UHGV virus genome: UHGV-0187710
Reading direction: 5' to 3' (one strand)
From: a virus
Length of the DNA stretch: 40,954 nucleotides
Positions 6,710 to 11,240 of the stretch are shown in pieces (the stretch's first letter is position 1; each line of letters starts with the position of its first letter). The notes under the pieces are model-generated. The model did not search any database. It was not told the DNA's origin and was given only the letters and a program-made list of their open reading frames with translations. A program made the translations under genes and the position numbers.

Positions 6710-7523
6710 GGTTTTACCCTCGTTAAGGCGGCTGCCACCGCCGTGTTTTCTCCATACACAACAGAGAAGGGCACCTGCAATTGTTGGCGACTGCAATCGC
6801 TATCCTCTTGCCCGGGTGGATTGGGTTATGAGCCCGTCACACGGTGATACCCTTTTCTGTTGCGTAAAAAGGGCGGTACCGAGGTAGAACATTATCTTCG
6901 TCCCCCTTGCATAAGGTTGAAGACCCTGGTACCGCCAAGACTACACACAGCAATACTGGAACTACGGTTATCACGGTCCTAAGCGTGATTTGGTTGTGGT
7001 GGCCGGTACTACGATATTCCGGCATGGGTTGATTATCAGTGACGCACCCTTTCGGGACACTACCTCACGGTTTAGCGCATCAGCCTGCGCATTCACCACA
7101 ACGAAGAGAGCACTGCCGGTGTTCGAATCGAACGAACCTTTTCCCTGCCCAACCCTCCCAACTGAATGGGACTGTCTGGAATCGAACCAGCACTTATGCC
7201 TTGCTCGTCAATGCTCTCGTCGTTGTGCCCTGAAAAAGGCTGGCGGTGACCGGACAAGTGGGAAAACACCGGGCCGCCAGAACAGGGAAGTACTTGTTAT
7301 TGCTTTGGCCTGCTTTTAACCACATCAGGCGCGGTGGTAAGCCATTTGCGAATCATCCGGTTATTCATATGCCACCGGCGGCTACTTCGTGGGCGTCCTG
7401 CCTGTTCGCTGTTGATGAGTTGAATATACTTGTGAGTAATTTTTGTGTAAATACCTTTTGGTATATTTTTATTTACTTTTATAGCAACTAATTGCTTTTA
7501 ATTGGATTTTAATTAAGCAGGTG

Positions 7524-7759
7524 ATGGGTGTTATGCTCAAAAAAACACCAGGTGGCTTGGTATAGAACGTGATGAACTGGAAGAAGACCGTGCGGCATTC
7601 ATCGCTGGTGAAATTGGCGGTGCAGTTTTCGAGTTGATAATCAACGGTGTGGTGATAAGTCGAGATGCGATTGTACATAGCTTGGAGACTAAGCGTCGCG
7701 CGGTTGGAAATGTGATTCACAAAGGAGTGTTGCGGGATGCTGCTATGGTGAGAAAATAA
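7524..7759 (+). pseudogene. small cargo ORF next to cI, interrupted at an A7 homopolymer (needs -1 slippage or one extra A); function unknown
   Basis: ATG 7524/7533 opens a 13-codon frame that stops at 7563; the -1 frame is open from 7517 to the TAA at 7757 and reads as plausible protein (ELEEDRAAFIAGEIGGAVFELIINGVVISRDAIVHSLETKRRAVGNVIHKGVLRDAAMVRK); A7 run at 7539..7545; a terminator follows the stop. Confidence 0.3.
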
Positions 7760-7760
7760 T

Positions 7761-7790
7761 ATTTAACCCGGCGCTTGCGCCGGGTTAAAT
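7761..7790. terminator. bidirectional rho-independent terminator shared by the small plus-strand ORF and cI
   Basis: perfect 14-bp inverted repeat atttaacccggcgc / gcgccgggttaaat around a 2-nt centre, T-rich on the plus side (gttattttct) and A-rich upstream (T-rich on the minus strand). Confidence 0.6.
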
Positions 7791-7838
7791 GTTATTTTCT
7801 AGAAGATGTTAAGTCTGTTTCAAATTCTAACACCAAAA

Positions 7839-8549
7839 TTACAATTTGTTGTAAGCTATTGATTCGTGTAGTAATGCTTTACCCATAATGTACAATTGAT
7901 CCTGGTTTTCTTCTGTTATGTACCAGTCTTTGTACACCGGGTTATCGGATAAAACTGCAAGTTGCAAGCCCTGCATCTGCAAGCGCTTCACATGGAAGTG
8001 CTGTCCGAATACAAACGCATAAACACCATCAACCTTGAAGTTTCTTACCGAAACATCAAAAAACAACCTGTCTCCAGACTGTATAGTTGGACACATGCTG
8101 TCGCCATCGACAGTCATCACTTTTACGTCTTCCTGAGAACGATTTCCGAAAAGTGAACGAGCGTGCTCGGTGGTGAATTCAATGGCGTGTAGAACCTCAA
8201 CAAATTCAGAGAGCATAAAACATCCAGGACCAGCACTCACAGTAAGGTCGAGAACTTCTACACGATAATTGTCGGCTTTGTGAGTGGGTACATCAACATC
8301 CATTTTTGAAGTTGGACTAAGACCATCCATCCATCCCCGGCTGATTTTCAAAGCATCCTCGATCTGCCGAGCAGCCTGCTCCCCAATATTCCGCTTATTA
8401 GGTTTACCAGCAGGGTAAAGCATCCGAGAAACAACAGTCGGATCAAGTCCTGCCTTTTCAGCAAACTCTCTTTGGGTCTTAAAGCGAGTTACTAACTCCT
8501 GAAGTTTGAGGCGTCGTAACTCGAAGATCTTAGGCGTTTCCGTTTTCAT
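7839..8549 (-). CDS. cI: CI-type prophage repressor (HTH N-terminus, LexA/S24 autocleavage C-terminus)
   Basis: N-terminal HTH-like region (FAEKAGLDPTVVSRML); Ala-Gly cleavage site (VSAGPG), Ser motif GDSM and Lys in HVKRL; divergent from a cro-like gene. Confidence 0.9.
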   Translation of the reverse strand: MKTETPKIFELRRLKLQELVTRFKTQREFAEKAGLDPTVVSRMLYPAGKPNKRNIGEQAARQIEDALKISRGWMDGLSPTSKMDVDVPTHKADNYRVEVLDLTVSAGPGCFMLSEFVEVLHAIEFTTEHARSLFGNRSQEDVKVMTVDGDSMCPTIQSGDRLFFDVSVRNFKVDGVYAFVFGQHFHVKRLQMQGLQLAVLSDNPVYKDWYITEENQDQLYIMGKALLHESIAYNKL

Positions 8550-8648
8550 AATTTCATCTTACTTAAATCTACCTTGAGGTAAATGACTTGTGGGTATTGA
8601 CTTGTGTTTACTTGGGGGTATATTTGCTTTTTAAGCACAGGAGGCGTG
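8550..8648. promoter_or_regulatory. cI/cro intergenic switch region with putative rightward promoter and operator-like repeats
   Basis: TTGACT (8597..8602), 16 nt, TATATT (8619..8624), then AGGAGG and the cro ATG; direct repeats TGACTTGTG at 8584..8592 and 8598..8606; imperfect 18-bp palindrome ATCTACCTTGAGGTAAAT at 8567..8584. Confidence 0.5.
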
Positions 8649-8891
8649 ATGGAAACGTTAAGAAATTACCTAAACGCTTTGTCGCTCGAAAAACAGAGAG
8701 AGTTTGCATCACGATGCGAAACCTCTCTTGAGTACTTGCGTAAAGCCATAAGCAAAAAACAAAAGTTGGGAGCTGCTCTATCTGTTTCTATCGAAACGCA
8801 TTCGGGCGGCTCAGTTAGCAGGAAAAACCTCCACCCAGATGATTGGGAAAAGATTTGGCCTGAACTTGATCATAAAAAAACAGCAGCATGA
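8649..8891 (+). CDS. cro: Cro-like / YdaS-family small DNA-binding regulator
   Basis: 80-aa product from ATG 8649 with AGGAGG 5 nt upstream; C-terminal HSGGSVSRKNLHPDDW resembles the YdaS/Cro family as recalled; divergent from cI. Confidence 0.75.
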   Translation: METLRNYLNALSLEKQREFASRCETSLEYLRKAISKKQKLGAALSVSIETHSGGSVSRKNLHPDDWEKIWPELDHKKTAA

Positions 8892-8919
8892 AAGTAACCA
8901 CAGAAGAGAGGAGTTAACC

Positions 8920-9165
8920 GTGGGTAACAGCAGCGAGACAAAAGATACAAACAGCGTGACCGCTAAAAGCGATGAAGGACAAATAACCATTTCCGAAGGA
9001 AAGATGCGGGTTTACATGTCATTCCAGCCAATTGTCCTTCCCCTTATTGGCGAGCTGATAAACGAGATGATCCTTAGAGGGAGATCCGCGGAGGAAATAC
9101 AGGCGGCAGTTGAAAGCGCCGCCCGTGGTTATTCAACGTTCTATCTTTCGTTTGTTCATGGCTAG
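8920..9165 (+). CDS. hypothetical small protein downstream of cro (start uncertain; alternative ATG at 9004)
   Basis: GTG 8920 with AGAGGAG 7 nt upstream; low-complexity N-terminus then a hydrophobic/helical C-terminus. Confidence 0.35.
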   Translation: MGNSSETKDTNSVTAKSDEGQITISEGKMRVYMSFQPIVLPLIGELINEMILRGRSAEEIQAAVESAARGYSTFYLSFVHG

Positions 9166-9398
9166 CACTGCGTACGTTGATATTGCTCTTCGGTTTCTTT
9201 TGATCTGGCGGACTCTATTTCCTTCAGTTTGTTTCGGTAAAGCTCACTGAAGACCAGTTCTGCATTGGTGATCAACTGAAAAACCTCTTCTGGCGACTTC
9301 TGGAATGTTTTGAAGTGACCAGACAAGACAAGATTCATGGCCAGATCGTGAGCGGCTTCTTCGGGAGACTTGCCGTAAGGCAGTGAATTTACAGACAT
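9162..9398 (-). CDS. hypothetical small protein encoded antisense to the rightward early operon
   Basis: 78-aa ORF from ATG 9398 with a strong AAGGAGG 6 nt upstream; its stop overlaps the stop of the convergent gene 8920..9165 (shared CTAG). Confidence 0.45.
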   Translation of the reverse strand: MSVNSLPYGKSPEEAAHDLAMNLVLSGHFKTFQKSPEEVFQLITNAELVFSELYRNKLKEIESARSKETEEQYQRTQC

Positions 9399-9483
9399 GT
9401 CGAACCTCCTTCGGTTCTGTTGGTGTGAGAGCTTGCAGGCTATCACCGTCAGGAAGTTCGGCGCCAATAATGGAGTTGCAGTA

Positions 9484-10032
9484 ATGAACGAACCGCAATG
9501 GAAAGTCGAACGTCAGCCAGCCTGGCTGGTGGTAGCGATTAAAAAAACGATTACCGATCTGCCAGGTGGCTACGCCGAAGCGGCGGAATGGTTGGGGGTG
9601 ACAGAGAACGCATTGTTTAACCGCCTTCGCGTCGACGGGGATCAGATCTTCCCTATGGGATGGGCGATGGTGTTACAGAAAGCCGCCGGTGTCAGCTACA
9701 TAGCTGATGCGTTTTCTCGTCAAACAGATAACGGGATACACGTTCCGGGTGCGGTGCCAGATGACGAAAACGAAGAAATTGGCTTAAAGCTGGCCGAGCT
9801 GGTGGGGCGTCTAGGAGAACTGGTCAACGCTTACCGTTGGTATATCGACGATGGGGTTGTTGATAAGGGTGAGTGGCAGAGCCTTAACGACATTGCATAT
9901 CAGTTCAGGGTAACTCTGATGACCTTTCTGAATTTGATTGCCCGTGTTTACTGCCTTCCAGAAAAGAGTGACGCCCGCGAGTGTGCAGCTCCGGGCGCCT
10001 TGGCGAACAACTCTTCGAGTATGGAGAAATAA
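9484..10032 (+). CDS. phage regulatory protein, CII-like (CP76-type) family, tentative
   Basis: start at internal ATG 9484 (MNEPQWKVERQPAWLVVAIKK...); segment LPGGYAEAAEWLGVTENALFNRLRVDGDQ is typical of that family as recalled; position after cro. Confidence 0.55.
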   Translation: MNEPQWKVERQPAWLVVAIKKTITDLPGGYAEAAEWLGVTENALFNRLRVDGDQIFPMGWAMVLQKAAGVSYIADAFSRQTDNGIHVPGAVPDDENEEIGLKLAELVGRLGELVNAYRWYIDDGVVDKGEWQSLNDIAYQFRVTLMTFLNLIARVYCLPEKSDARECAAPGALANNSSSMEK

Positions 10033-10037
10033 TCCGC

Positions 10038-10364
10038 ATGAACAGTTTAACGGCTTTTAACCGTCTACCGCAACTCAGGATGATCCCTGTTTCGGGTACT
10101 CCGTTGTTTCGGTATGAACGCAGATTATCAAACCGCTGGGTTCCGTGTAACCACAGTAGGGCGGTTTCAATTGTGGGGGTCTACAACCGGAGGGCAAAAC
10201 GCCTGTGCGCGAACTTAACCGAAGGTTCAAAGACTACCGTGGAGTGCCAGTCCGTGATATCCGCTGGGAACCTGAAACACAGCGCGTTATCTATCTGCGT
10301 GATGGCTACCCGCACTAATGCTTCAGCCCACTTGAGCATTTCAGGCGAAAGTTCAGGGAGATAA
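10038..10364 (+). CDS. coding status uncertain: track ORF with atypical composition; an alternative small ORF lies in another frame (GTG 10205..10318)
   Basis: 109-codon open frame rich in Ser/Arg/Cys and rare codons; the other frame reads VRELNRRFKDYRGVPVRDIRWEPETQRVIYLRDGYPH and looks more protein-like. Confidence 0.25.
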   Translation: MNSLTAFNRLPQLRMIPVSGTPLFRYERRLSNRWVPCNHSRAVSIVGVYNRRAKRLCANLTEGSKTTVECQSVISAGNLKHSALSICVMATRTNASAHLSISGESSGR

Positions 10365-10373
10365 CGGACGATC

Positions 10374-11240
10374 ATGAGCCAGATATTTGAAATCGTTCAA
10401 TCGCTGTCGGGGCAAAGGAATAGCATCACCATTCCGGTCCCGTACCTCGATTATTTCTCCGGCGATCAGCAGGCGCATGCTTTGGGCGCTGTGCTAAACC
10501 AGCTCGTGTTCTGGTCTGGTAAATCAGATCTGAATGATGGCTGGTTTTATAAAGAGCACAGCGAGCTTGCGGCAGAGATTCGCGGCGTGAGTGAAGATCA
10601 GGTGCAGCGCCTGGTAAACAAGATTTGTACCCGCTGGCTACCAGGGGTTGTTGAAAAGGCGCAGCGACAGGTAAACGGCACGAAAAAGACGCATTACCGT
10701 ATCAATGGCGAAGCGCTAATCAATGTTTTATTCCCGGCAACGCTGGATTCCGCAGAATCGCGGAACGGGAAACGCGAAGTCGCGGAACCTATTCTCTATA
10801 CAGATCATTACTCAGATCACCACAAACAGATCATTAACCCCTCTTGTCCGGTTGCGCCGCAACCAGACCCTGAGGTGTTGATCACTGATAACGCCATCCT
10901 GGTTTTAACTCATTTGAACCAGGTAAGCGGCTCCCGGTACCAGAAATCTAAAACCTCTCTGGAAAACATACGTGCCCGTCTGCGTGAAGGTTATACCGTC
11001 AGCGACTTAACGCTGGTGATTGACCTCAAGCATGAACACTGGAACGGCAATGACGCGCAGTATCAGTACATGCGGCCTGAAACTCTGTTTGGGCCGAAAA
11101 AATTTGAGGGTTATCTGCAAAGCGGGCTCCGCTGGGATAAGAAAGGCCGTCCCCCTCGTGAAAGCTGGGGCGAGAAGAAACATGACCCGATGAAGTTCGG
11201 CCCGGTAGATACCAAAATTCCAGAGGGATTCAGAGGATGA
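10374..11240 (+). CDS. replication initiation protein (replisome organiser with conserved phage C-terminal domain)
   Basis: 288-aa ORF at the O-gene position; C-terminal region (LTHLNQVSGSRYQKSKTSLENIRARLREGYTVSDL...) resembles the conserved phage replication C-terminus as recalled. Confidence 0.8.
   Translation: MSQIFEIVQSLSGQRNSITIPVPYLDYFSGDQQAHALGAVLNQLVFWSGKSDLNDGWFYKEHSELAAEIRGVSEDQVQRLVNKICTRWLPGVVEKAQRQVNGTKKTHYRINGEALINVLFPATLDSAESRNGKREVAEPILYTDHYSDHHKQIINPSCPVAPQPDPEVLITDNAILVLTHLNQVSGSRYQKSKTSLENIRARLREGYTVSDLTLVIDLKHEHWNGNDAQYQYMRPETLFGPKKFEGYLQSGLRWDKKGRPPRESWGEKKHDPMKFGPVDTKIPEGFRG

What the first reader, a model, noticed from the sequence alone, without database searches (positions are those of the whole stretch)
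8550..9483. Immunity region architecture: operator repeats and a strongly initiated antisense small gene facing the rightward early operon
The cI/cro intergenic region contains two direct TGACTTGTG repeats and an imperfect 18-bp palindrome overlapping a good sigma70-like promoter for cro. Downstream, a 78-aa gene on the opposite strand (9162..9398) has the strongest ribosome-binding site in the region (AAGGAGG) and ends stop-to-stop against the gene after cro. Rightward transcripts must therefore read antisense through it before reaching the CII-like and replication genes, which suggests the replication block has its own promoter in 9399..9483 or that there is convergent-transcription control.
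Basis: seen in the sequence. Interest (0 to 1): 0.36.

Follow-up and report, generated by a model that had tools for sequence, protein, structure and literature searches.

The report
Prophage switch with inserted backward gene
This is an ordinary lambda-type repressor/cro switch of an E. coli prophage. A 557-bp two-gene insertion sits just after cro, and one of its genes is a real, conserved, backward-facing small gene of unknown function that seems to carry its own promoter.

Summary
cI (7839..8549, -) and cro (8649..8891, +) diverge from a 99-bp region holding PR (TTGACT/16/TATATT, 8597..8624) and two exact TGACTTGTG copies.

The operators are better described as dyads, TACY-N4-RGTA. All four exact copies in the 41-kb window lie at OL and OR. 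A 95%-identical relative keeps the half-sites and varies only the centre, and does not keep the direct repeats.

The 78-codon antisense ORF (9162..9398, -) is a real gene: dN/dS is 0.05-0.12 with synonymous sites saturated. Its AAGGAGGT ribosome site is essentially invariant. About 70 nt upstream are conserved, ending at a weak -35 and extended -10.

Together with orf81 (8920..9165, +) it forms a 557-bp insertion. Relatives run cro directly into ymfL (the CII-like gene). orf81 took over the original ymfL start, and ymfL gained a new ATG.

No rightward promoter or terminator was found, so PR most likely reads through orf78 to ymfL and the replication genes. A separate replication promoter in 9399..9483 is not supported. 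Convergent PR/P78 transcription is real in layout but untested.

Both small proteins are predicted helical hairpins with no known family. Verdict: ordinary immunity region plus a moron-like accessory gene; modest interest.

The parts
7839..8549 (-). cI-like repressor, 236 aa, with an N-terminal HTH and a C-terminal S24 self-cleaving peptidase domain
   Evidence: Peptidase_S24 E=5e-17. phrog_4 transcriptional repressor E=2e-44.
7423..7451 (-). Candidate PL: TTTACA, 17-nt spacer, TATATT
   Evidence: Matches 10 of 12 promoter positions. It is flanked and overlapped by the two OL dyads.
7427..7438 (.). OL dyad TACTTGTGAGTA, overlapping the PL -10
   Evidence: Exact TACY-N4-RGTA match. A homologous site is kept in L023.
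7452..7463 (.). OL dyad TACCTTTTGGTA, just upstream of the PL -35
8570..8581 (.). OR dyad TACCTTGAGGTA on the cI-proximal side, in an OR3-like position. It is the core of the best 18-bp palindrome, 8567..8584.
8585..8596 (.). OR dyad with one mismatch, GACTTGTGGGTA, abutting the PR -35 in an OR2-like position
   Evidence: In L023 only the central 4 bp differ.
8609..8620 (.). OR dyad TACTTGGGGGTA, overlapping the PR spacer and -10 in an OR1-like position
8584..8606 (+).
   Evidence: Both copies are exact. They are not conserved in L023.
8597..8624 (+). PR: TTGACT, 16-nt spacer, TATATT
   Evidence: Matches 10 of 12 positions.
8649..8891 (+). cro-like gene, 80 aa, with SD AGGAGG at 8638..8643
   Evidence: phrog_35 E=1e-12. 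Weak YdaS_toxin hit. Start position as called in L009.
8920..9165 (+). orf81, 81 aa with a GTG start. It is a small early-operon protein, a predicted helical hairpin, with no known family. Its start (GTG GGT AA) matches the ymfL start seen in relatives.
   Evidence: 28 homologue clusters, all enterobacterial. dN/dS 0.2-0.5. AF2 pLDDT 72. Junction.
8924..9484 (.). The orf81-orf78 cassette with its flanking repeats: a 557-bp insertion relative to L022 and L023, shown here with both GTAA copies (8924..8927 and 9481..9484)
   Evidence: Alignment with relatives that lack the cassette.
9100..9125 (-). GC-rich hairpin (dG -15 kcal/mol) followed by UAUUUCCUC, 37 nt past the orf78 stop and inside orf81. 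Candidate leftward terminator or 3' stabiliser.
   Evidence: The GGCGGC..GCCGCC stem is kept across the whole orf81 family.
9162..9398 (-). orf78, 78 aa, acidic (pI 5.3), predicted two-helix hairpin, no known family
   Evidence: dN/dS 0.05-0.12. Homologues. AF2 pLDDT 80. No Pfam, PHROG, NCBIfam, PADLOC, PDB or fold match.
9404..9411 (-). Shine-Dalgarno AAGGAGGT, 5 nt before the orf78 ATG
   Evidence: Read from the sequence. The AAGGAGG core is kept in 5 of 6 aligned relatives; L001 and L003 have AAGGAAG. L020 has a recognisable variant, AAGGAGAT.
9399..9467 (-). Conserved block upstream of orf78. It holds a candidate promoter P78: -35 TTGGCG (9467..9462) and extended -10 TGATAGCCT (9445..9437). 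The predicted transcription start is near 9430.
   Evidence: 69-83% identity across lineages whose synonymous sites are saturated. Similarity stops at the -35. By consensus the match is weak.
9484..10032 (+). CII-like regulator of the YmfL family, 182 aa. Its ATG and RBS were created at the right-hand junction of the insertion.
   Evidence: NF041471 E=3e-38. phrog_101 E=8e-43. Junction.

Best explanation
The region is a standard lambdoid immunity switch.

**The switch (inferred from sequence).** An S24-type cI repressor binds dyad operators TACY-N4-RGTA, three at OR and two at OL. These overlap PR and PL, so PR and PL are shut in the lysogen.

**The insertion (shown by comparison).** Between cro and the CII-like gene ymfL lies a 557-bp two-gene insertion.
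- orf81 joined the PR operon by taking over the original ymfL start.
- orf78 faces leftward as a self-contained unit. It has a weak but conserved promoter, a near-perfect ribosome site, and a hairpin just past its stop.

**How it most likely works (inferred).**
- In the lysogen PR is silent. The weak P78 is then unopposed and orf78 is made, as for a moron-type accessory gene.
- On induction, PR transcripts run through orf81, antisense through orf78, and on to ymfL and the replication genes. There is no terminator or second promoter on the way.
- That traffic is expected to lower orf78 expression by collision, occlusion and antisense pairing.

The biochemical role of the 9-kDa acidic helical orf78 protein is not known. 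My guess is a small protein-binding modulator that benefits the lysogen.
For: **Switch**
- cI, cro, CII-like and O-like identities come.
- All 4 exact TACY-N4-RGTA matches in 41 kb lie in OL and OR. The chance expectation is 0.93, and 0 of 100 shuffles reach 4.
- The motif follows the cI allele. It is present in L009, L010, L012 and L016, which share this immunity region (the 236-aa cI is called in L009, L010 and L012). It is absent in L011 and L013-L015 and L017, where L011, L013 and L014 carry a different cI yet share orf81-orf78-ymfL.
- In L023, whose cI region is 95% identical, four sites sit at homologous places. The differences are confined to the N4 centre or the Y/R positions.

**orf78 is a real gene**
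- pN is 0.11-0.18 against pS 0.60-0.75, giving dN/dS 0.05-0.12.

**orf78 as a self-contained unit**
- The 70 nt upstream are 69-83% identical despite saturated synonymous sites. Similarity ends at the -35-like hexamer, beyond which the flanks are unrelated.
- Distant homologues in L018 to L021 also sit reversed relative to both neighbours.
- A hairpin with a U-containing tail lies 37 nt past the stop.

**Insertion**
- L022 and L023 run cro, then 23-28 nt, then ymfL starting GTG GGT AAT. orf81 starts GTG GGT AAC.

**Read-through**
- No + strand promoter lies in 9399..9483.
- No + strand terminator lies in 8560..9560.

**Accessory slot**
- Other prophages carry different reversed genes after orf81: a 158-aa gene, a 153-aa gene, or VapBC. 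VapBC replaced part of an orf78 homologue.
Against: - By consensus the putative P78 is weak: TTGGCG, then GATAGC or TAGCCT. It did not pass the standard promoter scan. Its support is conservation only.
- The U-tract after the hairpin is poor. The stem is also conserved in orf81 homologues that have no orf78, so it may serve another purpose.
- The GC content of the cassette (0.476) does not stand out from its flanks.
- orf78 and orf81 recur together in five lineages. That hints at a functional link which the plain moron picture does not explain.
- There are no expression data of any kind, and no functional clue for the protein.
- The dyad pattern was derived by looking at these same sites. Its window-wide count is therefore partly circular. 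L023 and the allele controls are the independent support.
Confidence: 0.6

Rival explanations
1. orf81 and orf78 are a functional pair, such as regulator and antagonist or a toxin-antidote-like couple. Their convergent, overlapping 3' ends would couple expression in opposite phases: orf81 with the lytic PR operon, orf78 in the lysogen. The proteins may bind each other.
For: - The convergent pairing recurs in five diverged lineages: the window type, L001-L004, L005, L006-L008 and L032. The two proteins have diverged in parallel, orf78 down to 50% identity and orf81 down to 51-58%.
- The 4-nt stop overlap is kept in the window and in L001 to L005.
- Both families are tiny. orf78 has 8 representatives among 1.84 billion proteins, and orf81 has 28 clusters.
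- There is a weak profile-profile similarity over helix-G..S.EE-helix: probability 36-50%, E about 2-4e-4.
Against: - Each gene occurs without the other. orf78 relatives stand alone in L018 to L021.
- orf81 is followed by unrelated genes in L024 to L031.
- orf78 was partly replaced by VapBC in L030 and L031 while orf81 stayed intact.
- There is no match to any TA or defence model.
- The profile similarity fell when more diverse sequences were added.
Confidence: 0.22
2. The leftward promoter is a PRE-like establishment promoter. The adjacent CII-like YmfL would activate it, and its transcript (orf78, then anti-orf81, then anti-cro) would continue into cI, as in lambda.
For: - The position resembles lambda PRE, which is leftward and lies at the start of cII (my own knowledge).
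- The hexamers are weak, as expected for an activator-dependent promoter.
- A TTGC-N6-TTCA lies on the minus strand over the ymfL start, followed by 12 nt and then CATTAT (read).
Against: - The conserved promoter block travels with orf78 into prophages that have no YmfL next to it, such as L001 to L006.
- The TTGC-like repeat is absent in L022 and L023, which lack the cassette, and it lies outside the conserved block.
- YmfL is not a lambda CII (PF05269) homologue; it gives only a sub-threshold match to a different Pfam family, Phage_CP76.
- Two minus-strand hairpins with U-containing tails lie between orf78 and cI, at 9125..9100 and 8727..8696.
Confidence: 0.07
3. The replication block (ymfL, O-like gene and so on) has its own rightward promoter in 9399..9483.
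For: It would remove the need to transcribe through an opposing gene. The only hints are weak, such as an AGTAAT preceded by TG that overlaps the ymfL ATG.
Against: - No + strand site passes the promoter scan.
- The best relaxed candidates would start at or inside the ymfL start codon.
- Relatives keep cro and ymfL in a single operon.
- No terminator on the + strand would need bypassing.
Confidence: 0.05
4. The 78-codon ORF is a chance open frame, and only an antisense RNA, or nothing at all, is made.
For: It is short and matches no known family.
Against: - dN/dS is 0.05-0.12 with saturated synonymous sites.
- The SD and ATG context is conserved across relatives, with single-base variants in L001 and L020.
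- Homologues down to 33-48% identity keep the same length and motif.
Confidence: 0.02

Closest known systems
Phage lambda immunity region (cI, OR1-3, PRM/PR, cro, cII; OL/PL)
   Same: - A divergent S24-type repressor and cro.
- Three dyad sites at OR and at least two at OL, overlapping PR and PL.
- The OR1-like to OR2-like centre spacing is 24 bp.
- The CII-like and replication genes lie downstream in the PR operon.
   Different: - The operator sequence is different: a 12-bp core TACY-N4-RGTA.
- The OR2-like to OR3-like spacing is only 15 bp.
- The CII analogue belongs to the YmfL family, with a sub-threshold Pfam CP76 match, not the lambda CII family.
- Two extra small genes lie between cro and the CII-like gene.
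- No N-like gene was identified.
Prophage morons (e.g. HK97 gene 15; defined in PMC3594210)
   Same: - Extra DNA that is absent from close relatives.
- A unit oriented independently of the surrounding operon.
- Apparently its own promoter and a hairpin after the stop.
- Different prophages carry different cargo at the same slot.
   Different: - The GC content does not deviate.
- The promoter and terminator are weak by consensus.
- The insertion brought a second gene, orf81, which is fused into the host operon rather than insulated from it.
e14-type prophages of E. coli (cro followed directly by ymfL), represented here by L022 and L023
   Same: - The same cI/cro allele (L023).
- The same ymfL, DUF4222, O-like, Dam and RusA block (L022).
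   Different: They lack orf81 and orf78. There ymfL starts at the GTG that serves orf81 in the window.
Convergent-promoter interference in temperate phages (lambda PR/PRE; coliphage 186 pR/pL; reviewed in PMC5001618 and PMC5423467)
   Same: A strong lytic promoter faces a weak leftward promoter, with no terminator between them on the rightward strand.
   Different: - The leftward unit encodes an accessory protein, not the repressor.
- The promoters are about 810 bp apart.
- Interference has not been measured.

Membership tests
Lambdoid cI/cro immunity switch | A repressor with an HTH and a LexA-like S24 self-cleavage domain | tested here: met
   Peptidase_S24 E=5e-17, plus a weak HTH_3 hit. 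phrog_4 E=2e-44.
Lambdoid cI/cro immunity switch | A divergently transcribed cro-like gene sharing the intergenic control region | tested here: met
   The 80-aa ORF at 8649..8891 matches phrog_35 at E=1e-12. The intergenic region is 99 bp and contains PR.
Lambdoid cI/cro immunity switch | Repeated dyad operators at both OR and OL, overlapping the early promoters | tested here: met
   TACY-N4-RGTA occurs 4 times, only at OL and OR. It is specific to the cI allele. The half-sites are conserved in L023.
Lambdoid cI/cro immunity switch | The repressor actually binds these sites and represses PR and PL | not testable with these tools
   Needs EMSA, footprinting or reporter assays.
Moron (independent accessory transcription unit in a prophage) | Extra DNA absent from otherwise similar phages | tested here: met
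   The 557 bp are absent in L022 and L023.
Moron (independent accessory transcription unit in a prophage) | Own promoter | tested here: inconclusive
   The conserved upstream block ends at a -35-like hexamer. The consensus match is weak.
Moron (independent accessory transcription unit in a prophage) | Own terminator | tested here: inconclusive
   A hairpin at 9125..9100 (dG -15) is followed by UAUUUCCUC. The U-tract is poor, and the stem is also present where orf78 is absent.
Moron (independent accessory transcription unit in a prophage) | Base composition differs from the neighbouring genes | tested here: not met
   GC is 0.476, against 0.42-0.53 in the flanks.
Moron (independent accessory transcription unit in a prophage) | Expressed from the repressed prophage | not testable with these tools
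   Needs RNA-seq or TSS mapping of a lysogen.
Lambda PRE / CII-activated establishment promoter | Activator-binding direct repeats flanking the -35 of a leftward promoter, conserved together with the CII gene | tested here: not met
   The conserved promoter block occurs without YmfL. The TTGC-N6-TTCA at the ymfL start is absent from L022 and L023.
Type II toxin-antitoxin pair | Two small co-directional, co-transcribed genes matching known TA or defence families | tested here: not met
   The genes are convergent. There is no Pfam or PADLOC match.
Arc/Mnt ribbon-helix-helix repressor (considered for orf81) | An N-terminal beta strand followed by two helices, with an RHH profile match | tested here: not met
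   AF2 gives two long helices (26-52 and 57-79) and no strand of three or more residues. No Pfam, PDB or fold match was found.

The most novel reading that the evidence does not exclude
orf81 and orf78 form a previously undescribed two-protein module that rides in the early-right operon of enterobacterial lambdoid prophages. The two small helical-hairpin proteins, possibly distant paralogues, would be expressed in opposite phases through convergent, terminator-free transcription. Together they would influence the lysis-lysogeny outcome or a host or defence target. The conserved GGCGGC..GCCGCC hairpin inside orf81 would act as the RNA-level coupling element.
Probability: 0.12. Interest if true: 0.6.

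Novelty: new member of a known kind. Interest (0 to 1): 0.3.

Why it matters
- It gives a testable operator model (TACY-N4-RGTA) for one E. coli prophage immunity type.
- It shows base by base how a small cassette can be spliced into an operon: the incoming gene takes over the host gene's start, and the displaced gene acquires a new one.
- It marks the slot after orf81 as a hotspot for backward-facing accessory genes, including VapBC. Such places are where new lysogen-benefit or anti-phage functions tend to be found.
- orf78 and orf81 are two tiny protein families with no known function. If orf78 is expressed in lysogens it becomes a candidate for a new small effector.
- Nothing here challenges current understanding of lambdoid regulation.

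Tried and rejected
- **Family searches for orf78 and orf81.** Pfam, PHROGs, NCBIfam and PADLOC gave nothing.
- **Solved structures.** PDB profile searches returned only a designed helical repeat sharing a GKSxEE cap and other noise.
- **Fold searches.** Foldseek against PDB and BFVD with AF2 models gave no hit at E<=0.001.
- **RHH idea for orf81.** I inferred it from the G-R-S-x-E-E motif. The model shows a long helix rather than a beta strand, so I dropped it.
- **YmgB/AriR-like idea for orf78.** This came from memory; no profile support, so I dropped it.
- **Phage and genome searches.** Megablast and tblastn against 50,697 phage genomes found no match for the cassette. None of 5,426 complete E. 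coli genomes carries it at about 85% identity or more. The genome-contig scan confirmed no loci.
- **Rfam.** Nothing passed the gathering threshold anywhere in the window. The one match at E<=1 near the region (rnk leader, E=0.62, 7694..7796) lies outside the finding and I take it as chance.
- **Lambda-style TTGC-N6-TTGC site at the ymfL start.** Rejected because it is not conserved.
- **Paralogy of orf78 and orf81.** hhalign probability was 50%, falling to 36% with broader alignments. Left as unproven.
- **Frameshift at the A7 run 7539..7545.** Considered to explain the truncated phrog_3975 ORF. Replaced by a simpler finding: the start codon is ATG in L023 and ATA in the window.
Full report
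**What is in the region**

ORF listing and profile searches identify the genes as follows.
- A 236-aa repressor with an S24 self-cleavage domain lies at 7839..8549 on the minus strand (Peptidase_S24 E=5e-17; phrog_4 E=2e-44).
- A divergent cro-like gene follows (phrog_35 E=1e-12).
- Two small ORFs with no family follow cro.
- A CII-like regulator of the YmfL family lies at 9484..10032 (NF041471 E=3e-38; phrog_101 E=8e-43).
- An O-like replication gene lies at 10374..11240.

The window is identical across 8550..9483 to draft E. coli prophage contigs L009, L010 and L012. It has no near match among 50,697 phage genomes. Complete E. coli genomes match only over the cI/cro part or a short stretch of ymfL.

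Reading the sequence corrects one coordinate. cro starts at ATG 8649 and is 80 aa long, preceded by AGGAGG at 8638..8643.

**Checking the operator observation**

The two TGACTTGTG copies are exact, at 8584..8592 and 8598..8606. An exact 9-mer repeat appears in 2.8% of shuffles of this 99-bp region. PR is the best rightward promoter match in 7200..10400: TTGACT 8597, 16-nt spacer, TATATT 8624, 10 of 12 positions. A leftward PL candidate at 7451..7423 scores the same.

The repeat does not recur at OL. The motif shared by both control regions is the dyad TACY-N4-RGTA.
- Its four exact matches in the 41-kb window are 7427, 7452, 8570 and 8609, all at OL or OR. The chance expectation is 0.93, and no shuffle out of 100 reached four.
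- A one-mismatch copy at 8585 abuts the PR -35.
- I derived the pattern from these same sites, so the window count is partly circular.

Two independent controls support it.
- The motif is present in loci that share this immunity region (L009, L010, L012, L016; the 236-aa cI is called in the first three). It is absent in L011, L013, L014, L015 and L017, which share the downstream genes; L011, L013 and L014 carry a different cI.
- In L023, whose cI region is 95% identical (E. coli O157:H16), four matches sit at homologous OL and OR positions. Every difference from the window falls in the central N4 or at the degenerate Y/R positions. The TGACTTGTG copies themselves change there to TGACTCCTG and TGACTTGTA.

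The layout resembles lambda.
- 8609..8620 lies over the PR -10, in an OR1-like position.
- 8585..8596 abuts the PR -35, in an OR2-like position.
- 8570..8581 lies on the cI side, in an OR3-like position.
- At OL, one site lies over the PL -10 and the other just beyond its -35.

The best 18-bp palindrome (8567..8584, 7 of 9 pairs) is the OR3-like site and does not overlap PR. Actual binding remains an inference.

**The antisense gene is real**

orf78 (9162..9398, minus strand) has few relatives: five clusters among 5.8 billion proteins, and eight representatives among 1.84 billion in an exhaustive profile search.

Between the window and the Salmonella and metagenomic copies, synonymous sites are saturated (pS 0.60-0.75). 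Non-synonymous change is low (pN 0.11-0.18), giving dN/dS of 0.05-0.12. The N-terminal motif LPxGK(S/T)PxEAAHxL...SGHF is kept down to 33-48% identity.

The ribosome site AAGGAGGT (9411..9404) lies 5 nt before the ATG. Its AAGGAGG core is kept in five of the six aligned relatives (L001 and L003 have AAGGAAG), and a variant (AAGGAGAT) is still recognisable in the distant L020 copy. The stops of orf81 and orf78 share CTAG at 9162..9165.

**orf78 appears to carry its own leftward promoter**

The 70 nt upstream of orf78 are 69% identical to L001 and 83% identical to L006. In L032 the block is almost the same as in L006 even though the protein is only 50% identical to the window's. Synonymous sites in these same lineages are saturated, so the conservation is meaningful.

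Similarity ends just beyond a -35-like TTGGCG (9467..9462), and the flanks beyond it are unrelated. The associated -10 is TGATAGCCT (9445..9437). The positions T-A-N-N-C-T are kept in the window, L001, L005, L006 and L019, and three of these five have the upstream TG.

By consensus this is a weak promoter, and it failed the standard scan. The evidence for it is conservation and position, not sequence strength.

A minus-strand hairpin at 9125..9100 (dG -15 kcal/mol) followed by UAUUUCCUC lies 37 nt past the orf78 stop. It is a possible terminator or 3' stabiliser.

**The cassette is an insertion**

Two relatives lack both small genes.
- L023 has the same cI and cro.
- L022 has the same ymfL, DUF4222, O-like, Dam and RusA block.
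- In both, cro is followed after 23-28 nt by ymfL, which begins GTG GGT AAT.

In the window the same ribosome site and GTG GGT AA begin orf81. ymfL starts instead at a new ATG (9484) inside GTAATGAAC. A 4-nt GAAC duplication restores its reading frame. The extra DNA is 557 bp, bounded by GTAA at 8924..8927 and GTAA at 9481..9484. Its GC content (0.476) does not differ from the flanks.

**Consequences for rightward transcription**

No promoter-like site lies on the + strand in 9399..9483. The best relaxed candidates would start on or inside the ymfL ATG. No terminator-like structure lies on the + strand between 8560 and 9560. The relatives keep cro and ymfL in a single operon.

The simplest reading is that PR transcripts run through orf81, antisense through orf78, and on to ymfL and the replication genes. 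PR and P78 are therefore convergent, about 810 bp apart. Interference and antisense pairing are expected from work on convergent promoters (PMC5001618, PMC5423467), but they were not measured here.

**Context in other prophages**

orf81 relatives form 28 clusters, all from Salmonella, E. coli and Klebsiella. They always sit in the early-right operon, after cro or after YdaS-YdaT.

The slot after orf81 holds varied cargo:
- orf78 in five lineages, including an uncalled copy in L032;
- a reversed 158-aa gene;
- a reversed 153-aa gene;
- a reversed VapBC pair that left only a 3' remnant of an orf78 homologue;
- a same-strand gene.

More distant orf78 relatives in L018 to L021 stand without orf81. 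They are again reversed relative to both of their neighbours.

This fits the definition of a moron as an independently transcribed add-on (PMC3594210). It also fits the observation that genes antisense to lytic operons are typical accessory loci expressed in lysogens (PMC7067206). The recurrent orf78-orf81 pairing keeps a functional link between them open.

**What the proteins are**

Both are acidic 9-kDa proteins. AlphaFold models give helical hairpins, with pLDDT 80 for orf78 and 72 for orf81.

Searches returned nothing informative, whether against Pfam, PHROGs, NCBIfam or PADLOC, against PDB sequences, or by fold comparison. A weak profile-profile similarity between the two families (probability 50%, then 36% with broader alignments) is not enough to call them paralogues.

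**Verdict**

This is an ordinary lambdoid immunity region with a well-supported dyad operator model. It carries a small, rare insertion whose backward gene is real and probably self-transcribed.
- The proposal of a separate replication promoter is not supported.
- The convergent-transcription idea is plausible but untested.
- The function of orf78 is unknown. I commit to a lysogen-expressed accessory protein (confidence 0.6), with a paired orf81/orf78 module as the main rival.

Noticed in passing
window 7562..7759 (+), with a terminator at 7751..7800: A phrog_3975-type small gene lies between OL and the end of cI. In L023 it starts with ATG, but the window has ATA at 7562..7564, so the first canonical start leaves only 41 of about 68 codons. 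It is followed by a strong hairpin with 24-nt arms, 96% complementary (dG -25).
   Followed up: partly
window 9100..9125, and the homologous codons in L001, L005, L006, L024, L027 and L030: The stem GGCGGC..GCCGCC is built from the two Ala-Ala codon pairs of orf81. It is kept in every family member although synonymous sites elsewhere are saturated. One change (GCG to GCA in L001) keeps pairing only as G-U in the antisense RNA. This suggests selection on a nucleic-acid structure.
   Followed up: partly
window 9481..9498, compared with L022 3483.. and L023 4021..: ymfL gained a new ATG start by reading the ancestral AAT GAA codons in the +1 frame. A 4-nt GAAC duplication restores the reading frame.
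   Followed up: yes
L030 and L031 3738..3834; L032 3768..3953: L032 has an uncalled 66-aa orf78 homologue convergent with its orf81 homologue. In L030 and L031 a reversed VapBC pair has replaced all but about 55 nt of its 3' end.
   Followed up: yes
L001-L004 6745..7212: A reversed 155-aa predicted membrane protein (phrog_6315; very weak SLATT_4 hit, E=0.1) lies between cro and the orf81 homologue. The early-right region of these Salmonella prophages is thus broken into alternating-strand units.
   Followed up: partly
window 7483..7496: A near-perfect 14-bp palindrome, AGCAACTAATTGCT (6 of 7 pairs), lies next to the OL region. It is unrelated to the cI dyad motif, and its role is unknown.
   Followed up: no
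window 10033..10373: A 340-bp gap lies between ymfL and the O-like gene. Relatives (L012-L014, L022) have a DUF4222 gene called there. A weak minus-strand promoter-like site (10151..10124, 9 of 12 positions) would read antisense into ymfL, in an OOP-like position.
   Followed up: no
window 8727..8696 (-): A hairpin (dG -12) followed by UGUUUUUCG lies antisense inside cro. It could stop leftward transcripts before they reach PR and cI.
   Followed up: no
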